From Escherichia phage C6, in the sequence record MW679410.1: a DNA stretch of 64,000 nucleotides, one strand, 5' to 3'. Made by a program: the position numbers and the translations under genes. Positions within the stretch are counted from its first letter, which is position 1. Each line of letters begins with the position of its first letter. The notes under the pieces are model-generated. The model worked only from the letters and a program-made list of their open reading frames with translations, did not search any database and was not told the origin of the DNA. This document shows positions 577 to 60,712 of this stretch, piece by piece.

Positions 577-1857
577 ATGGCTAAAATTAACGACCTTTTA
601 AAAGAGTCGACCACTACTTCGAGTTCTTCGATTGGTCGTCCAAATTTAGTAGCTTTAACCAGAGCTACGACCAAACTGATTTATACCGACCTTGTAGCTC
701 AGCAGCGTACTAACCAACCTTTGGCTGCTCTATATGGTATCAAATATCTTACAGAAAAAAACGAATTATCTTTCCAGACAGGTGCTACTTATTCTGGTGC
801 AGTATCCGCTAAAGACCGTGCCTCTATCCCAGTTTTCACTGCAGGTGCTGTTTACGCTAAAGATGATTTGTTCCAATTTGAAAACGTAGTTTATAAAGCT
901 TTGGTAGCAACACCATTTGCAGGTGCTACTGGCGATGAATACGAACAACTTCAAGAAGCTATTGTTAAGTTGACTATTCGTATTATGTCCGAAGCCGCAC
1001 TGACTGAGCGTTTTGAAGGCCTCCAGGATGTAGATGTTTCTGAAGCCAAATTCGTCGTTAATAAATGGAACGCTCCAGTTAAATCCCGTAAGTTGAAGAG
1101 TACTGTTACTGTAGAACTGGCTCAAGACCTCGAAGCAAATGGTTTCGATGCCCCTAATTTCTTGGAAGACCTCCTGGCTACTGAAATGGCTGATGAAATC
1201 AACAAAGATATTCTTCAGTCCCTGGTTACGGTTTCCAAGCGTTATAAAGTTGAAGGTTTGTGTGATGACGGCTTAATTGACCTGAGTTATGCTAACTCAC
1301 CGGAAGCTTCTCGCAAGCTTTATGAAATAGTTTGTGAAATGGTTTCTCATATCCAGCGCGCAACCTCTTATACGGCAACTTATGTAGTAGCGAGTACTCG
1401 CGTAGCCGCTGTTCTGGCTGGTTCTGGCTGGTTAAGACATACCCCACAGAACGACAAATATCTTTCTGCAAATGCATACGGATTCCTGGAAAATGGTTTG
1501 CCTGTGTATTGTGATACCAACACGCCAATTGATTATGTTACTGTAGGTGTTAAAGAGGAATTTGGTGGGAAAGAAGCAGTAGGTTCTTTGTTCTATGCGC
1601 CGTATACAGAAGGCCTTGATTTGGCTGACCCTGAACATGTGGGTACATTTAAAGTGGTCGTTGACCCTGAAAGCCTGCAACCATCTATTGCATTAATGGT
1701 TCGTTATGCACTGGCTGCTAACCCTTATACGGTTACTTCCGATGATAAACAAGCCCGTATTATTGATGCGACTAATATGGATTTGATGGCGGGACGTTCT
1801 GATATGTCCGTATTGCTTGGTGTGAAACTTCCTAAAGTTTTGACTGAATTAAACTAA
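577..1857 (+). CDS. 24: capsid vertex protein gp24
   Basis: 426 aa; N-terminus MAKINDLLKESTTT..IGRPNLVALTRATTKLIY and C-terminal half closely match T4 gp24. Confidence 0.95.
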   Translation: MAKINDLLKESTTTSSSSIGRPNLVALTRATTKLIYTDLVAQQRTNQPLAALYGIKYLTEKNELSFQTGATYSGAVSAKDRASIPVFTAGAVYAKDDLFQFENVVYKALVATPFAGATGDEYEQLQEAIVKLTIRIMSEAALTERFEGLQDVDVSEAKFVVNKWNAPVKSRKLKSTVTVELAQDLEANGFDAPNFLEDLLATEMADEINKDILQSLVTVSKRYKVEGLCDDGLIDLSYANSPEASRKLYEIVCEMVSHIQRATSYTATYVVASTRVAAVLAGSGWLRHTPQNDKYLSANAYGFLENGLPVYCDTNTPIDYVTVGVKEEFGGKEAVGSLFYAPYTEGLDLADPEHVGTFKVVVDPESLQPSIALMVRYALAANPYTVTSDDKQARIIDATNMDLMAGRSDMSVLLGVKLPKVLTELN

Positions 1858-1860
1858 CAA

Positions 1861-1887
1861 AAAAGGGACCTTACGGTCCCTTTGTCG
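1861..1887. terminator. bidirectional hairpin gggaccTTACggtccc between convergent genes 24 and rnlB
   Basis: Perfect inverted repeat flanked by A-run and T-run. Confidence 0.6.
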
Positions 1888-1889
1888 TC

Positions 1890-2894
1890 TTACGACACTA
1901 ATTCAATCCATACTGCTCGTAGGGTATCTTTTACACACTCAACGAGCTGCTTTTTAACTTCAACAGGATTTTCTGCATCGGTTAATTCTAATTCTTCACG
2001 GGCGGCTTCTTCTAAGATATCTTGGACTGTCAAGCCCATTACCTTTCCGAAATCCTTTTTAGATACTTCGCCAATCTTACTGATGACATTATTAATGCGG
2101 TTAACAGTCACATAATCGGTGAATTGCCACATCAAATCCATATCGTCTTGGGATAAAACTACCACAGTCTTGATAGGCTTATCGGACTTTTTCTTCTCGC
2201 TGAATTTAGAGTTCTTACATTTAATCGCTACGCGATTTCCGTTTGGAAGCCAGGTAGGAATATCAGGTTTAAGTACAAAGCCTTCGGCTGTAAATACTTT
2301 ACCTTCTACCTTAGGAATAAAGTCTGTCGAGTTTGCAATAGTTAGGCCAGCGTTATCCACTGCAAAATTATAATCAGGAATAACTGAATCAAAGTCGTTA
2401 GGTAATTTAATAAGGTCTTCAAAGCTACCGGTGGCCAGACATGGAGCTACCTTAAACTTATGGATAATACAGAAGGCTTCCATCAATGTATCGGTTAGAA
2501 CAGATTCTGAACCATCTTCCTTAGTAACTCGGATATCGAACACATAAAAGTCTTTATCGCCGTAGTCCACATTCTTCTGGATACCTGTCCCAGCGAATTC
2601 GCCATAAATCTGGTACGACTGATAATTAATCGATTCAATTAGATGTTGAACAGATTTAATAGAATCAGCATAGTTCTTAAGTACAATTTCATAACCATAG
2701 AAATCTTCAGCAGGGAGGATAGGGCCAGTGCGCTTGGCGCATGTGACTGCGTCACGTTCTATGATTAAACTAAAGTTGGTTCCATGAATCTTCTCACGTG
2801 CCACCCATTCACCACTGGTCAAACCATTAGTACGGAGTTTTTCGATAAACTTACTGTTGTAGTGGTTTTCGAGACTGCTATATTTCTTGAACAT
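1890..2894 (-). CDS. rnlB: RNA ligase 2
   Basis: 334 aa; [20 protein letters not shown]...[10 protein letters not shown] (ligase KxHG-type motif), near-identical to T4 Rnl2. Confidence 0.95.
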
Positions 2895-4907: not shown

Positions 4908-6404
4908 ATGCAAATTCAAGTACATTTTGATAATTTTAGTCATGTCCGTATTGAATGCGATGAATCTACATTCTACGAACTCAGAGACTATTTTAGCTTT
5001 GAAGCTGATGGATATAAATTCAACCCTAAATTTCGTTATGGACAATGGGATGGTCGTATTCGTCTTCTGGATTATAACCGTAAACTGCCTTATGGATTGG
5101 TTCCACAGATTAAAAAATTCGCTGAACAATTTGAATACTCTCTGTGGATTGACCCACGTATTCTTGAACAGGAAGATATTTCTCGTGAAGATTTTGACTC
5201 ATGGGTTGCTTCTCAAGAAATTTATTCAGGGTCTACCAAGATTGAGCCTCATTGGTATCAGAATGAAGCCGTATACAACGGCCTGACAAAACGTCGCGCA
5301 ATTCTGAATTTACCTACATCCGCAGGTAAATCATTAATCCAGGCACTCCTGAGTCGATATTACGTTGAGAACTATGAAGGTAAAATCCTTATTCTGGTTC
5401 CTACTACTGCACTCGTTGACCAGATGATTAATGACTTCATTGATTATCGTCTGTTCCCTAAAGCAGCAATGCTTGGTATTCGTTCAGGTACTGCTCGTGA
5501 TTCTGATGCAATGATTTACGTTTCGACTTATCAAACCGCTATCAAGCAACCTAAAGAATGGTTCGCTCAGTTTGGTATGTTTATGAACGACGAATGCCAT
5601 TTGGCCACAGGTAAATCTATTTCTACTATCATCGAAGGCCTAACCAACTGTATGTTTAAATTCGGTTTGTCCGGTTCTTTAAAAGATGGTAAAGCTAATT
5701 TAATGCAATATATGGGTTTGTTTGGTGATGTGTTTAAGCCGGTATCCACTTCACAGTTGATGGAAGAAGGACAGGTTACTGACCTTAAAATCAACAGTAT
5801 TTTCCTTCGATACCCAGACGAATTCACAGTTAAGATGAAAGGTAAAGATTACCAATCAGAAATTAAAGTCATTACTAAGGCTACTCGTCGTAATAAATGG
5901 GTTGCTAATTTAGCTGTTAAACTCGCTAAGAAAGAAGAGAACGTATTCCTGATGTTTAAAAACATCGAACACGGTAAAACTCTTTTTGAAATGGTTAAAG
6001 AGCAACATAAAGAAGTTTATTATGTATCAGGTGAAGTTAATACCGAAACGCGTAATGCTCTGAAAGTAATGGCGGAAAATGGTAAGGGTATTATTGTTGT
6101 GGCAAGTTACGGTGTGTTCTCTACCGGTATTTCCGTTAAGAACCTTCACCACGTTGTATTTGCCCATCCAGTAAAATCTAAAATCATTGTACTCCAGACA
6201 ATTGGTCGTGTACTCCGTAAACATGCTTCTAAATCAACAGCACAAGTATGGGATATCATCGACGACATGGGTGTTAAGCCTAAATCAGCTACGGCTAAAA
6301 AGAAATATGTTCATTTGAACTACGCCCTCAAACACGCTTTAGAACGTATTCAACGTTATGCTGATGAGAAATTTAATTACGTAATGAAACAGGTGGATTT
6401 ATGA
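4908..6404 (+). CDS. uvsW: UvsW DNA/RNA helicase
   Basis: 498 aa; MQIQVHFDNFSHVRIECDESTF..., Walker A LPTSAGKS, helicase motifs, strong match to T4 UvsW. Confidence 0.95.
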   Translation: MQIQVHFDNFSHVRIECDESTFYELRDYFSFEADGYKFNPKFRYGQWDGRIRLLDYNRKLPYGLVPQIKKFAEQFEYSLWIDPRILEQEDISREDFDSWVASQEIYSGSTKIEPHWYQNEAVYNGLTKRRAILNLPTSAGKSLIQALLSRYYVENYEGKILILVPTTALVDQMINDFIDYRLFPKAAMLGIRSGTARDSDAMIYVSTYQTAIKQPKEWFAQFGMFMNDECHLATGKSISTIIEGLTNCMFKFGLSGSLKDGKANLMQYMGLFGDVFKPVSTSQLMEEGQVTDLKINSIFLRYPDEFTVKMKGKDYQSEIKVITKATRRNKWVANLAVKLAKKEENVFLMFKNIEHGKTLFEMVKEQHKEVYYVSGEVNTETRNALKVMAENGKGIIVVASYGVFSTGISVKNLHHVVFAHPVKSKIIVLQTIGRVLRKHASKSTAQVWDIIDDMGVKPKSATAKKKYVHLNYALKHALERIQRYADEKFNYVMKQVDL

Positions 6405-26113: not shown

Positions 26114-26470
26114 TTACTTAATGATGATACGAGGATTAAGCTCTGCCGTGTAGTAATTTACAGCCTTAGTAACTATAGCTTCACCTTTAGGATTTGCCAG
26201 AACCCATTCACGGGCTCGTTTGTGAGCTTCTAATTCAGTCAATAATCCGGACCTTTGACACCCTCTGTCTTGGGTACCTGCTTCTGTTAAAAAAGCAACT
26301 AGGTAGATCGCGTTTTCATAAGGCGTGGCGGGCGGTACGTATACAGGCGGGCTTGGCGGGTTATATGCCGCGGGATGATGTGCCGGAATTCCATCATACG
26401 GCCCTGTACCTGGCACCGCGTAAGAGGCGCCGCGAGGAGAAGTAAATGTATGATTATATCTATCGTTCAT
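26114..26470 (-). CDS. hypothetical proline-rich protein
   Basis: 118 aa; N-terminal proline-rich tract (GIPAHHPAAYNPPSPPVYVPPATPY) then a globular C-terminal part. Confidence 0.5.
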   Translation of the reverse strand: MNDRYNHTFTSPRGASYAVPGTGPYDGIPAHHPAAYNPPSPPVYVPPATPYENAIYLVAFLTEAGTQDRGCQRSGLLTELEAHKRAREWVLANPKGEAIVTKAVNYYTAELNPRIIIK

Positions 26471-26488
26471 AATATTTCCTACAAAAAT

Positions 26489-26506
26489 GGGACTCCGAAG
26501 AGTCCC
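26489..26506 (-). terminator. hairpin gggactCCGAAGagtccc
   Basis: Perfect stem followed by T-run on minus strand. Confidence 0.5.
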
Positions 26507-26511
26507 ATAAC

Positions 26512-26673
26512 TTATGCCTGAGGCTTACCAAAGCAAGCAGCATCTGCACGCAATACCGCACGAGCACGAGCTTGAAGCTTATCAACTACCTGATCGATAC
26601 GCTTGTTGGACGCACGCTTGTAACCAGCGCGTTTAGAGGTACCGTCAACTACTTTAACTTCTTTCTTAGCCAT
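26512..26673 (-). CDS. hypothetical 53-aa basic protein
   Basis: Hand-called MAKKEVKVVDGTSKRAGYKRASNKRIDQVVDKLQARARAVLRADAACFGKPQA; not in track (<60 aa). Confidence 0.45.
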   Translation of the reverse strand: MAKKEVKVVDGTSKRAGYKRASNKRIDQVVDKLQARARAVLRADAACFGKPQA

Positions 26674-26828
26674 TTTAAATCTCTTAAATTAGAATGCAGG
26701 ACTTATTGGCGTTGCCTGCGCAAGCCCTCAAGGGGAACATAGGTTTCGGATATTTAACGACAGGATAACCATAAACCTCGTCATCATACCAACCACGGCT
26801 TAGACAGATAACCTTTTTCTGACGCGTG

Positions 26829-26857
26829 ATAGTACAAAATACATTCAAGAGGTACAC
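26829..26857 (-). promoter_or_regulatory. early-type promoter (GTGTAC-N17-TACTAT) inside a 260-nt ORF-free region
   Basis: Correct spacing; would give about a 145-nt leader ahead of ORF 26512..26673. Confidence 0.4.
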
Positions 26858-26940
26858 CGTAAAATTGTCGGGGCGGTACTTCTAAAACATACCGATTCGT
26901 AAATCGATAATCAGACAATTCGACGGCTCCTCGATTTAAC

Positions 26941-27189
26941 TTACTTCAGGGTAATAATAAAATGACGTACTGCTTTACGAGCTGCTGAAGCCAAAGGCTT
27001 AGCAAATTTCAGTTCATCTTTAGCTTCCAGTTCAGCAGCCAGAGTAGCCTGAGCCGGATTCAGATGTTTGAAATAACGCAGGATTTCCAGTGCTTCGGCT
27101 TCAACATCAATAGATGCGCCGTAGTTTTCGTGACCGTTGTTCCAAGCGTTGCGTTGCAGTTCAAGAGCGTGATTCAGTTGTTTGTTCAT
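26941..27189 (-). CDS. rIII: rIII lysis-inhibition accessory protein
   Basis: 82 aa; MNKQLNHALELQRNAWNN...AKPLASAARKAVRHFIITLK matches T4 rIII. Confidence 0.9.
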   Translation of the reverse strand: MNKQLNHALELQRNAWNNGHENYGASIDVEAEALEILRYFKHLNPAQATLAAELEAKDELKFAKPLASAARKAVRHFIITLK

Positions 27190-27327: not shown

Positions 27328-27651
27328 TTATTTATACAAGCAAGGAATTGCTTTGTAATGACAGGTAACGAATTTTTGTTTAATTTCTTTGGGCTGTTTA
27401 ATACCCAATGCAACCAACGGATGAGGCACGTTAGCAATCTTACCAACAGGAAGTGGAGTCAAATCGCCTACTTCACAAAAATCTTCAGGGACATCAGGTC
27501 CTACAGAATAAATTTCACAAAGTTCAGGGATTTCACCTTGATGGAGTTTGCCAATAACGATACCAGATGCAGTAGTTTCTTCATCACCAGCTTGTTTTGG
27601 TTCGGAAACGAGAATAACATATTCTCCGACCGCTTTAATAGGAAGTTCCAT
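27328..27651 (-). CDS. 31: gp31 co-chaperonin (GroES homolog)
   Basis: 107 aa; ...[11 protein letters not shown]...[23 protein letters not shown] matches T4 gp31. Confidence 0.95.
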
Positions 27652-60263: not shown

Positions 60264-60712
60264 TAGTAAGCCTGCAGAATGAATTTAAAGTTATCAGCCA
60301 ACATGCGGTTCATTTCTTCCAGTGTCTGGAGGTCGGAACTATGATTGCGAGTGAAAGCCATTGCAATTTGGCCCTTACCAAAACCAGTAGTCAGAGGTTT
60401 CATCTTAGAAGCCGGCACATAAAGAACTTCGTACACAACACCATTCACTGCCATAGTGCGAGCTGATTGAGAACGTTTCTTACGAATGTTAGCCACGATA
60501 CCATCAAGACCTTGAGCCGAACGTTGATTACCGACATAAAAACGAGCAGCTACGACACGAGAATCAGCTCCACCTTTAACAAAGAAGTAGAAGCCTGGTT
60601 GAGCAGAGATTTCTTTAGAAGGTTTACCATTTTGGTATTCACCATTCTTAACATAAGCAACAGTAGTAGCACCAGCAGACAGAACGTTACGGCGAGTCAT
60701 ATAAGTATTCAT
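60263..60712 (-). CDS. ndd: nucleoid disruption protein Ndd
   Basis: 149 aa; ...[10 protein letters not shown]...[22 protein letters not shown]...[18 protein letters not shown] matches T4 Ndd. Confidence 0.95.

What the first reader, a model, noticed from the sequence alone, without database searches (positions are those of the whole stretch)
26674..26940. About 260-nt ORF-free region between rIII and a 53-aa basic ORF, with an internal promoter and long leader
No ORF over about 20 codons exists on either strand in a genome otherwise packed end to end. It holds an early-type promoter (GTGTAC-N17-TACTAT, about 26829-26857) that would give a ~145-nt structured leader (GC-rich segments such as GCCCTCAAGGGG) before the small basic ORF at 26512..26673. 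It could be a regulatory leader or a small RNA.
Basis: partly seen in the sequence, partly recalled or inferred. Interest (0 to 1): 0.45.

Follow-up and report, generated by a model that had tools for sequence, protein, structure and literature searches.

The report
Conserved structured RNA cassette after rIII
The "empty" 267 bases between rIII and gene 30.9 of this T4-type phage encode no protein but a string of conserved folded RNA modules, including a pseudoknot found once in every related phage. In T4 and other relatives the same slot also holds a one-copy look-alike of the bacterial ToxI antitoxin RNA.

Summary
The gap (26674-26940, genes on the minus strand) is real and is shared by about 775 T4-type phage records, including T4 itself. 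It is non-coding: the longest ORFs use GTG or TTG starts, and their frames break between close relatives. Part of it is better conserved than the genes beside it: 95% identity to T4 for the 3' half, against 68-84% for rIII, 30.9 and gene 31.

It is a mosaic of independently folding RNA modules. In this window they are:
- M6, a long four-helix hairpin with a UACG loop
- M5, a nested hairpin
- M1, an H-type pseudoknot with an A-rich linker
- M2 and M2b, two hairpins just before the 30.9 ribosome-binding site

Compensatory base changes support M6, M5 and both stems of M1. M1 occurs once in each of 31 related loci. The other modules vary in presence and order.

I found no support for it.

No Rfam family matches. 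In T4 and many relatives, though not in this window, the slot also holds a single ToxI-like repeat, and different phages match different ToxI subtypes.

Best reading, inferred: co-transcribed protein-binding RNA decoys. The main rival is a purely cis-acting leader for 30.9.

The parts
27329..27336 (-). TATAAATA, a T4 late-promoter consensus box upstream of rIII. It is the likely source of transcripts that run through the gap.
   Evidence: the only match near rIII, and none inside the gap. The function is inferred from the known T4 late-promoter consensus.
26941..27189 (-). rIII (82 aa), the upstream gene.
   Evidence: phrog_1457, E 5.5e-43; annotated as rIII in relatives.
26841..26935 (-). Module M6, a long irregular hairpin of four stacked helices, capped by a UACG tetraloop. 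The pairs are GAGG 26932-26929 with CCUC 26852-26849; CCGU 26926-26923 with ACGG 26860-26857; UUGUC 26918-26914 with GACAA 26869-26865; and the terminal hairpin 26909-26890.
   Evidence: 98.6% of cells paired across 14 distinct sequences, five pairs with changes on both sides, 0/500 shuffles reach the score, and slid controls are far lower. The window itself carries three of the compensatory changes.
26829..26857 (-). It spans the M6/M5 junction.
   Evidence: Coordinates. Not reported by the sigma-70 scan. The juxtaposition is absent from T4, JS98 and L040.
26788..26833 (-). Module M5: an outer stem (CUAUCACG with CGUGGUUG) enclosing an inner hairpin CAGA-AAAAGGUUA-UCUG (26821-26805) and a conserved UAAG internal loop.
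   Evidence: the RNAalifold consensus shows an inner pair changing A-U to C-G and an outer pair changing C-G to U-A. In L047, L051 and L067 the same core has a different outer stem or a GG-GAAA-CC inner hairpin.
26738..26787 (-). Module M1, an H-type pseudoknot. Stem 1 is GAC[G]AGG 26782-26776 with CCUGUC 26764-26759. Stem 2 is loop GGUU 26770-26767 with AACC 26745-26742, plus a possible bulged extension UAU/AUG. The A-rich linker GUUAAAUAUCCGA is 26758-26746.
   Evidence: covariation in both stems, score 0.417 against at most 0.13 for slid controls, 0/500 shuffles; loop-tail complementarity beats 4998 of 5000 permutations; a single significant match in the 64-kb window (71.7 bits, 26737-26796); one copy in each of 31 related loci.
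26725..26735 (-). Module M2, a short G+C hairpin CCCC-UUGA-GGG with conserved flanks GUU...CUUG.
   Evidence: present in almost all relatives, sometimes upstream of M1 rather than downstream. Covariation is limited (CCUC-UUA-GAGG in L058), so the stem is only weakly supported.
26696..26719 (-). Module M2b, the hairpin GCAGG-N14-CCUGC with a conserved 14-nt loop CAACGCCAAUAAGU, followed by a U-rich tract.
   Evidence: the stem covaries (ACUGG/CCAGU in STML-198 and L046; GCGGG/CCUGC with G.U in L044) while the loop is kept. Other genera have different hairpins (M7, M10, M5) at the same position.
26674..26695 (-). Ribosome-binding region of 30.9: AUUCUAAUUUAAGAGAUUUAAA, with the Shine-Dalgarno-like AAGAG at 26685-26681. 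UUCU can pair with AGAG.
   Evidence: Read. The analogous (C)UCC-N5-6-GGA(A) pairing is seen in other genera. The pairing is inferred and not tested statistically.
26512..26673 (-). gp30.9, a 53-aa basic protein found only in T4-type phages. Predicted as a disordered basic N-terminus plus one long helix.
   Evidence: phrog_1427; 41 homologues, all phage, no name or Pfam domain; mean pLDDT 70; helix 28-48.
26487..26508 (-). Intrinsic-terminator-like hairpin (9 pairs, UUCG loop, U tract) after 30.9. Probably the end of the rIII-gap-30.9 transcription unit.

Best explanation
**Shown.** The gap is the Dhakavirus version of a non-coding 'RNA cassette slot' shared by the enterobacterial T-even-type phages. 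It is read on the rIII/30.9 sense strand and holds four or five independently folding, conserved RNA modules, in the order M6 long hairpin, M5 nested hairpin, M1 H-type pseudoknot, M2 and M2b hairpins. M1 is the constant element, one copy per phage. The other modules come and go and change order between phages.

**Inferred.** The modules are made as part of the rIII-30.9 transcript. No conserved promoter lies in the gap, a late-promoter box lies upstream of rIII, and the first terminator follows 30.9. I think the modules work as autonomous protein-binding RNAs. [quoted passage not shown] The reasons are:
- In T4 and many relatives the same slot holds a single repeat plainly homologous to the ToxI antitoxin, and different phages match different ToxI subtypes.
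- M1 has the architecture reported for type III antitoxin units: an H-type pseudoknot whose A-rich linker crosses stem 1.
- The modules act independently of their distance from the 30.9 start codon.

The last hairpin, its U-rich tail and a small hairpin that includes the Shine-Dalgarno sequence probably also set how much 30.9 is translated.
For: **Conservation above the coding neighbours.** M1-M2b is 94.8% identical to T4 and 95.8% to ATK47. rIII is 84-91%, 30.9 is 68-69% and gene 31 is 75%. The stretch is found in 775 phage records.

**Not coding.**

**Structure with covariation.** M6, M5, M1 stem 1, M1 stem 2.

**Strand.**
- UNCG loops in M6 read correctly on the sense strand.
- GNRA loops in M4 and in M5 variants were seen by reading.
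- G.U outnumbers A.C by 14 to 4 in M6, but the counts are 8 to 8 in M1.

**Modularity and shuffling.** The module maps of 52 distinct gaps show, for example, M3-M6-M1-M2-M2b in T4, M2-M1-M5 in L047 and M9-M1-M3-M4-M2-M7 in L059. The M1-to-AUG distance ranges from about 70 to about 330 nt.

**M1 is single-copy.** One copy in the window, and one copy in each of 31 related loci.

**The slot holds an antitoxin mimic in relatives.**
- M3 matches the 36-nt ToxI arrays of 66 small plasmids at 320 places.
- One such array lies directly upstream of an annotated ToxN/AbiQ toxin gene.
- M3 variants match the units of divergent ToxN loci, with a 25-nt identical run to P. atrosepticum pPA21A.
- The M3 helix covaries together with ToxI.

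**Published description of the family.** ToxI is an H-type pseudoknot with A-minor contacts, and tenpI/cptI have a stem, an A stretch and a second stem (PMC8860590; PMC12283969).

**Precedent.** The intergenic pseudo-ToxI of phage PhiTE (PMC3475682).
Against: **The window itself lacks the ToxI-like module.** Only its 3' tail, GUUAAAUCGAGG, remains.

**No bacterial counterpart was found for any window module.**
- No BLAST match in 5,426 complete E. coli genomes at E <= 1.
- No BLAST match in 72,556 plasmids at E <= 10.
- A tandem-M1 pattern scan of 185,579 species genomes gave only unrelated repeats.

**Other points against.**
- The modules are single-copy, whereas real antitoxins are tandem arrays.
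- In the PhiTE work a single pseudo-ToxI repeat did not neutralise over-expressed ToxN.
- T4, which carries M3, needed extra tifA to overcome E. coli toxIN (PMC9391042).
- H-type pseudoknots with A-rich linkers also occur in riboswitches and translational operators.
- The modules always lie immediately upstream of 30.9, which suits a cis role.
- There are no expression data, and single-sequence folding is not exceptional (z = -0.98 for the window).
Confidence: 0.42

Rival explanations
1. A purely cis-acting intercistronic leader. The hairpins and the pseudoknot protect the 3' end of the rIII message and the 5' end of the 30.9 message from RNases. They may define processing sites. Through the last hairpin, its U-rich tail and Shine-Dalgarno pairing they set 30.9 translation, possibly with gp30.9 binding its own leader, as gp32 does in T4.
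For: - The array always ends 25-35 nt before the 30.9 start with a strong hairpin, a U-rich tract and a short hairpin that includes the Shine-Dalgarno sequence, even when the hairpin itself is not homologous (M2b, M7, M10 or M5).
- gp30.9 is small, very basic and largely one helix, so it is a plausible RNA binder.
- No terminator separates rIII from 30.9.
- T4 precedent, from my own knowledge: the gene 32 leader with its 5' pseudoknot stabilises the mRNA and serves as a translational operator.
Against: - The order and number of modules vary, and M1 lies 70 to 330 nt from the AUG. A fixed operator or expression platform would not tolerate that.
- L051 keeps M2-M1-M3-M5 although its 30.9 is truncated after about 14 codons.
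- More distant phages (L063, L065) have a 30.9-like gene abutting rIII with no leader at all.
- A ToxI-like repeat has no obvious cis role, yet it lives in the same slot and is under structural selection.
Confidence: 0.35
2. An internal early-type promoter (GTGTAC-N17-TACTAT) starts a transcript of about 145 nt that serves as leader for 30.9 or as a small RNA.
For: - The two hexamers with a 17-nt spacer are present at 26857-26829.
- From my own knowledge, GTGTAC resembles the T4 early -35 element GTTTAC.
Against: - Not reported by the sigma-70 scan, which found no more sites than in shuffled sequence.
- The hexamers belong to two separate modules and are kept for pairing.
- The juxtaposition is missing in T4 and JS98, and the spacer is 11 nt in L040.
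- M6, upstream of the proposed start, is at least as strongly constrained as what lies downstream.
Confidence: 0.07
3. M1 is a ligand- or protein-sensing aptamer. It has the same topology as a class I preQ1 riboswitch: P1, L1, P2, then an A-rich L3. It would control the hairpin that follows it. The other modules would be later insertions.
For: - The stems covary while the unpaired nucleotides GUU, AUC and CGUUAAAU are nearly invariant. That is the pattern typical of aptamers.
- In the shortest gaps (PM2, L050, CE1) M1 is followed directly by one hairpin and the ribosome-binding site.
Against: - No Rfam riboswitch model matches, even at E = 10.
- In many phages 100-250 nt of other modules separate M1 from the last hairpin.
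- No ligand logic links it to a 53-aa basic protein of unknown function.
Confidence: 0.08
4. A DNA-level element (replication origin, recombination or homing site), or a small peptide gene.
For: - One record (ATK47) annotates a 10-nt 'ori type 2 repeat' in the gap.
- ORFs with GTG or TTG starts exist.
Against: - UNCG loops and the excess of G.U pairs in M6 are strand-specific RNA features. GNRA loops were seen by reading.
- Covariation keeps pairing rather than sequence.
- The frames are broken between relatives.
- The element is single-copy and has no repeats in the window.
Confidence: 0.03

Closest known systems
Pseudo-ToxI of Pectobacterium phage PhiTE (Blower et al. 2012, PMC3475682)
   Same: A lytic phage carries, in an intergenic region, a short non-coding copy of a type III antitoxin RNA. 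It is transcribed during infection and can mimic the antitoxin. The T-even slot holds a single ToxI-like repeat (M3) in T4, ATK47, L051, L059 and others.
   Different: - The window phage has no ToxI-like module, and its modules have no identified bacterial counterpart.
- The T-even slot carries several unrelated modules rather than 1.5 repeats of one.
- PhiTE is not a T4-type phage (my own knowledge).
Type III antitoxin RNAs (ToxI, CptI, TenpI)
   Same: M1 is a compact H-type pseudoknot with an A-rich linker and conserved single-stranded flanks. This is the architecture described for ToxI (solved) and for cptI/tenpI (PMC8860590, PMC12283969).
   Different: - M1 is about 50 nt, against 34-45 nt.
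- It is single-copy rather than tandem.
- It has no adjacent toxin gene.
- It has no detectable sequence similarity to ToxI or to anything in E. coli genomes or plasmids.
T4 gene 32 mRNA leader with its 5' pseudoknot (translational operator and mRNA stabiliser; my own knowledge)
   Same: A T-even phage places an H-type pseudoknot in a long leader upstream of the gene for a small nucleic-acid-binding protein.
   Different: - The gene 32 pseudoknot sits at a fixed place, followed by an unstructured A/U-rich run to the ribosome-binding site. Here the distance and the intervening modules vary widely.
- There is no sequence similarity.
- RNA binding by gp30.9 is unproven.
PeSL mobile regulatory cassettes of RB49-type phages (Arbiol et al. 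2010, PMC2839356; listed, not read; the features given here are from my own knowledge)
   Same: Short intergenic modules that contain stem-loops and are reshuffled between related T4-type genomes.
   Different: - PeSLs are repeated many times per genome and carry an early promoter.
- The modules here are single-copy and lack a conserved promoter.
Intercistronic RNase III hairpins of phage T7 early mRNA (my own knowledge)
   Same: M6 is a roughly 95-nt irregular hairpin with internal loops lying between two cistrons.
   Different: No evidence of RNase III cleavage. T4 mRNA processing is mainly by RegB and RNase E. The GGAG in M6 is paired and lacks the A-rich 3' context of strong RegB sites (consensus GGAGRAYARAA, PMC3014915).

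Membership tests
Type III antitoxin RNA or phage pseudo-antitoxin | Sequence homology to an antitoxin repeat that lies upstream of a ToxN/CptN/TenpN toxin gene | tested here: not met
   For the window modules there was no match in E. coli genomes or plasmids. The feature is met only by module M3 of related phages, and M3 is absent from the window. TenpN and CptN loci could not be retrieved for comparison.
Type III antitoxin RNA or phage pseudo-antitoxin | H-type pseudoknot core with an A-rich loop positioned to contact stem 1 | tested here: met
   For M1, both stems are supported by covariation, and the linker GUUAAAUAUCCGA is A-rich. The A-minor contacts themselves cannot be tested here.
Type III antitoxin RNA or phage pseudo-antitoxin | Tandem repetition of the unit | tested here: not met
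   One M1 per genome. No direct repeats of any module in the window. No tandem M1-like arrays in bacterial genomes.
Type III antitoxin RNA or phage pseudo-antitoxin | Binds and inhibits an endoribonuclease toxin and is processed at A-rich sites | not testable with these tools
   The M1 linker contains UAAAU, which resembles the ToxN sites AA^AU and GAA^AU. That is only suggestive.
   The spacing is 17 nt, but the site fails the 9-of-12 criterion of the scan. By my own count GTGTAC matches TTGACA at 2 of 6 positions and TACTAT matches TATAAT at 4 of 6.
   The hexamers lie in different modules. The juxtaposition is absent in T4 and JS98 and altered in L040.
   No RNA data were available. The T4 omics paper searched does not mention the locus.
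Any curated RNA family (Rfam 15), including riboswitches, ribozymes and tRNA-like elements | A covariance-model match | tested here: not met
   Nothing in the gap at E <= 10, nor in the module-rich gap of L060. No tRNA or tmRNA. Caveat: Rfam also fails to hit a genuine ToxI array.
Gene 32-type autoregulatory leader | A pseudoknot at a fixed position, followed by an unstructured run to the ribosome-binding site | tested here: not met
   A pseudoknot is present, but its distance to the AUG varies from about 70 to about 330 nt, with structured modules in between.
Protein-coding small gene | A reading frame conserved among relatives | tested here: not met
   The frames shift between the window, ATK47 and T4. 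No family match.
PeSL-type repeated regulatory cassettes | Many copies per genome | tested here: not met
   No second copy of any module in 64 kb.

The most novel reading that the evidence does not exclude
The rIII-30.9 gap of enterobacterial T-even phages is an RNA anti-defence island: a slot in which phages collect single-copy mimics of RNA antitoxins, and possibly of other immune-system RNAs. M3 would track at least four ToxI subtypes. The universal pseudoknot M1 would be a mimic of a still unidentified antitoxin (TenpI/CptI-like or new) whose toxin is widespread in Enterobacteriaceae. M4, M5, M6, M9 and M10 would be further decoys.
Probability: 0.3. Interest if true: 0.85.

Novelty: new variant of a known kind. 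Interest (0 to 1): 0.66.

Why it matters
T4 is among the best-studied viruses. Yet this stretch is unannotated, or wrongly covered by stretched ORF calls, in the records I inspected. The 3' half, which T4 shares, is more conserved than the neighbouring genes and folds into elements with good covariation support, including a pseudoknot family that matches nothing in Rfam.

If the modules are decoys, T-even phages carry a modular RNA-based counter-defence locus. That would explain part of their host range against type III toxin-antitoxin systems and would provide ready-made RNA inhibitors of ToxN-type toxins. The ToxI-like module in T4 itself makes this directly testable with existing toxIN strains.

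If the modules are cis-acting, this is a new example of multi-domain mRNA control in phage.

In either case the element should be annotated, and it should be considered when this region is deleted or engineered in therapeutic T4-type phages.

Tried and rejected
- **Rfam, tRNA and tmRNA scans.** Nothing found.
- **Single-sequence folding.** Not distinguishable from shuffles for the window (z = -0.98) and modest for T4 (z = -2.1). Structure had to come from comparison.
- **Repeats elsewhere in the window.** Only chance 11-15-mers. A 22-nt M3-like hit at 60443-60464 overlaps ORFs of 81 and 149 aa.
- **RegB site at GAGGAG.** The context does not fit the GGAGRAYARAA consensus, and the GGAG is paired in M6.
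- **RNAalifold on the M2/M2b region.** It proposed a different long-range fold without any compensatory support. I kept the two local hairpins, which covary across genera.
- **An alternative M1 hairpin, GAUGAC with GUUAUC, from single-sequence folding.** Only four invariant pairs are shared by relatives, so I preferred the pseudoknot.
- **Bacterial counterparts of the window modules.** None found by BLAST against E. coli genomes and plasmids, or by a tandem pattern scan of species genomes.
- **TenpN and CptN loci for comparison.** A profile search and a PDB search returned only ToxN/AbiQ proteins, and no supplementary tables were held.
- **gp30.9 against TifA (gp61.4).** No similarity.
- **gp30.9 structure.** One helix, too simple for a fold search.
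- **Literature.** I found no paper that mentions this intergenic region or a ToxI-like sequence in T4-type genomes. The T4 genome review and Guegler & Laub 2021 were not held.

Full report
**Where we are.** The window comes from a Dhakavirus, a T4-type phage about 99% identical to IME341 and MX01 over this stretch. The genes here run on the minus strand in the order cd, 31.2, 31.1, 31, rIII (26941-27189), the gap (26674-26940), gp30.9 (26512-26673), and a terminator-like hairpin at 26508-26487. The same gap exists in T4 itself (244 nt, NC_000866 130541-130784). Among relatives it ranges from 120 to 416 nt.

**The observation.**
- The coordinates, the GTGTAC-N17-TACTAT motif and the G+C-rich segment are all present.
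- The claim of no ORF above 20 codons holds only for ATG starts on the sense strand. There is a 57-aa GTG ORF and a 44-aa TTG ORF.
- These are not genes. Single-base insertions and deletions shift their frames between the window, ATK47 and T4, and they match no protein family.

**Conservation.**
- The gap sequence is found in 775 phage records from several genera.
- Its 3' half is 95% identical between this phage and T4 or ATK47. rIII is 84-91%, gene 31 is 75% and 30.9 is 68-69%.
- A non-coding stretch that outlasts its coding neighbours is under strong selection.

**Anatomy.** I compared 52 distinct versions of the gap. It resolves into recurring modules whose presence and order vary.
- T4 has M3-M6-M1-M2-M2b.
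- This window has M6-M5-M1-M2-M2b.
- JS98 has M6-M4-M1-M2-M2b.
- L047 has M2-M1-M5.
- L059 has M9-M1-M3-M4-M2-M7.

No module recurs elsewhere in the 64-kb window.

**Structures in the window.**
- *M6 (26935-26841)* is a four-helix hairpin capped by UACG (UGCG in T4). Among 14 distinct sequences 98.6% of cells pair, and five pairs show changes on both sides. Several of those changes are in the window sequence itself. No shuffle or slid control comes close.
- *M5 (26833-26788)* has an outer stem and an inner hairpin, each with a compensatory change. In other genera the same core has a different outer stem, or a GAAA-capped inner hairpin.
- *M1 (26787-26738)* is an H-type pseudoknot.
  - Stem 1 shows U-A, A-U and G-C at one position, and C-G, G-C and U-A at the next, with no broken cells.
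  - The hairpin loop pairs with the sequence that follows an A-rich linker. Loop and tail change together: GUGAG with CUCAC, CAAGGUU with AAUCUUG, GUUGGUU with AACCAAC.
  - This pairing beats 4998 of 5000 permutations. It scores 0.417 against at most 0.13 for slid controls when both stems are counted.
  - In the window, stem 2 is the weakest version: GGUU with AACC plus a bulged extension.
- *M2 and M2b* are short hairpins. The M2b stem covaries across genera while its 14-nt loop is kept. M2 is only weakly supported.
- *Strand.* UNCG loops in M6 read correctly on the rIII-sense RNA. GNRA loops in M4 and M5 variants were seen by reading. G.U outnumbers A.C by 14 to 4 in M6, but the counts are 8 to 8 in M1.

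**The promoter.**
- The -35-like hexamer overlaps the 3' strands of two M6 helices. The -10-like hexamer overlaps the 5' end of M5.
- T4 lacks M5, JS98 has M4 there, and L040 has an 11-nt spacer.
- The sigma-70 scan does not list the site.
- A late-promoter box sits upstream of rIII at 27329-27336, and none sits in the gap.
- The first terminator-like site follows 30.9.
- The simplest reading is one transcription unit: rIII, the gap and 30.9.

**What it is not.**
- No Rfam family, tRNA or tmRNA matches.
- It is not a repeated cassette.
- The GGAG after the rIII stop is paired and lacks the context of strong RegB sites.

**The lead from the neighbours.**
- Module M3 is absent from this window but present in T4, ATK47 and many others. 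It is a single copy of the type III antitoxin ToxI.
- It matches 66 small plasmids at 320 places.
- In plasmid pNMEC-O75B the match lies in an array of 5.6 copies of the 36-nt unit, directly upstream of a ToxN/AbiQ toxin gene.
- I fetched divergent ToxN loci and found that different phage M3 variants match different ToxI subtypes:
  - ATK47 and L051 share a 25-nt identical run with the P. atrosepticum pPA21A unit.
  - L052 and L061 match an Enterobacter cloacae unit.
  - L067 matches the Serratia and E. coli unit.
  - L059 and L060 match the classical unit.
- The shared helix covaries across phage and plasmid copies.
- Rfam does not recognise even the genuine array, so the Rfam negatives say nothing about this class.
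- I found no paper that mentions a ToxI-like sequence in T4-type genomes.

**Reading the window in that light.**
- M1 has the architecture published for type III antitoxin units: an H-type pseudoknot with A-rich contacts to stem 1.
- The modules behave as autonomous units whatever their distance from the 30.9 start.
- One relative keeps them although its 30.9 is truncated.
- That favours trans-acting, protein-binding RNAs, most plausibly decoys.

Against this:
- The window modules have no detectable bacterial counterpart.
- They are single-copy.
- Single pseudo-ToxI repeats were weak inhibitors in published over-expression assays.
- T4 is sensitive to E. coli toxIN unless tifA is amplified.
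- TenpN and CptN loci, the obvious places to look for an M1 counterpart, could not be retrieved with the tools.

**The main rival** is a purely cis-acting leader. The array always ends with a strong hairpin, a U-rich tract and a small hairpin that includes the Shine-Dalgarno sequence, 25-35 nt before the start codon, even when those hairpins are not homologous. gp30.9 is a tiny basic one-helix protein that could bind RNA. It is unrelated to TifA.

**Verdict.**
- The feature is real, functional-looking and, as far as I could find, undescribed. I put about 0.9 on it being a selected, structured RNA.
- I put 0.42 on the decoy reading and 0.35 on a purely cis role.

Noticed in passing
L006:2251-2279 (-), which is T4 NC_000866 about 130750-130778; also L005, L036, L043, L051, L052, L059-L061 and L067, between rIII and 30.9: T4 and many relatives carry one copy of a ToxI-like repeat (type III antitoxin) just after the rIII stop codon. 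In T4 it reads GGAGAUUCACUGCCUUAGUGUGAGCUAAAU. It matches ToxI arrays on 66 plasmids, and in the plasmid I inspected (pNMEC-O75B) the array lies directly upstream of a ToxN/AbiQ toxin gene. I found no report of it.
   Followed up: yes
L111-L115 (plasmid ToxN loci) compared with L051, L052, L061, L067 and L059: Different phages' ToxI-like repeats match different ToxI subtypes. One example is a 25-nt identical run between ATK47/L051 and P. atrosepticum pPA21A; others match Enterobacter cloacae and Serratia/E. coli units. This looks like an arms-race locus.
   Followed up: partly
L003:about 1811-1945 (-), the JS98 insert; L035, L036, L044, L048, L049, L053 and L055-L061: A roughly 135-nt element (M4: ACGGCAAGUGCAUGCUACC...GCUAACGGUGUGCAACAGAUAAGAG), with GNRA-capped helices that covary by eye, sits in the same gap in 404 phage records from Escherichia, Klebsiella, Enterobacter, Citrobacter and other hosts. 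There is essentially one copy per genome, and 385 of the 404 are at least 90% identical. No Rfam match was found in a gap that contains it, and none in E. coli genomes or plasmids. Its identity is unknown.
   Followed up: partly
L002:about 1950-2020 (-), IME08, right after the rIII stop: IME08 has an extra 64-nt insert that by eye is a second pseudoknot of the M1 class: stem 1 GUGGA with UCCAC, and loop GGCAGGUA pairing with downstream UACCUGCU. Model R1 did not detect it at E <= 1.
   Followed up: no
L051:1750-2000: In one phage the 30.9 reading frame diverges after about 14 codons, yet modules M2-M1-M3-M5 upstream are intact.
   Followed up: no
L004:1015-1233 (T4T); L007:815-1033 (CE1); the UniRef name of P0019: Several records start 30.9 at an upstream ATG, giving 72 aa instead of 58. 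That ORF runs through the M2b hairpin. Some records also name the product '1,4-alpha-glucan branching enzyme'. These look like annotation artefacts.
   Followed up: partly
L091:1428-1627: Rfam 15 gives no ToxI-type match on a genuine 5.6-copy ToxI array. Only weak unrelated hits around its terminator were returned. Rfam-based scans will therefore miss type III antitoxins and their phage mimics.
   Followed up: yes
window 26471-26511: Only 41 nt, almost entirely the terminator hairpin, separate the 30.9 stop codon from the next ORF (26114-26470, 118 aa, phrog_17531). T4 has 110 nt there.
   Followed up: no
L095:150-280 and 5364-5436; L108:about 1764-1829 (-): The pattern scan turned up unrelated tandem units with a G+C hairpin followed by an A run in a Deltaproteobacteria MAG and in a Turicibacter MAG (GAUAUCGCCCGCGUUAAAAAAGCGGGGCGGC in the former). 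They could be repeat-RNA loci of some kind.
   Followed up: no
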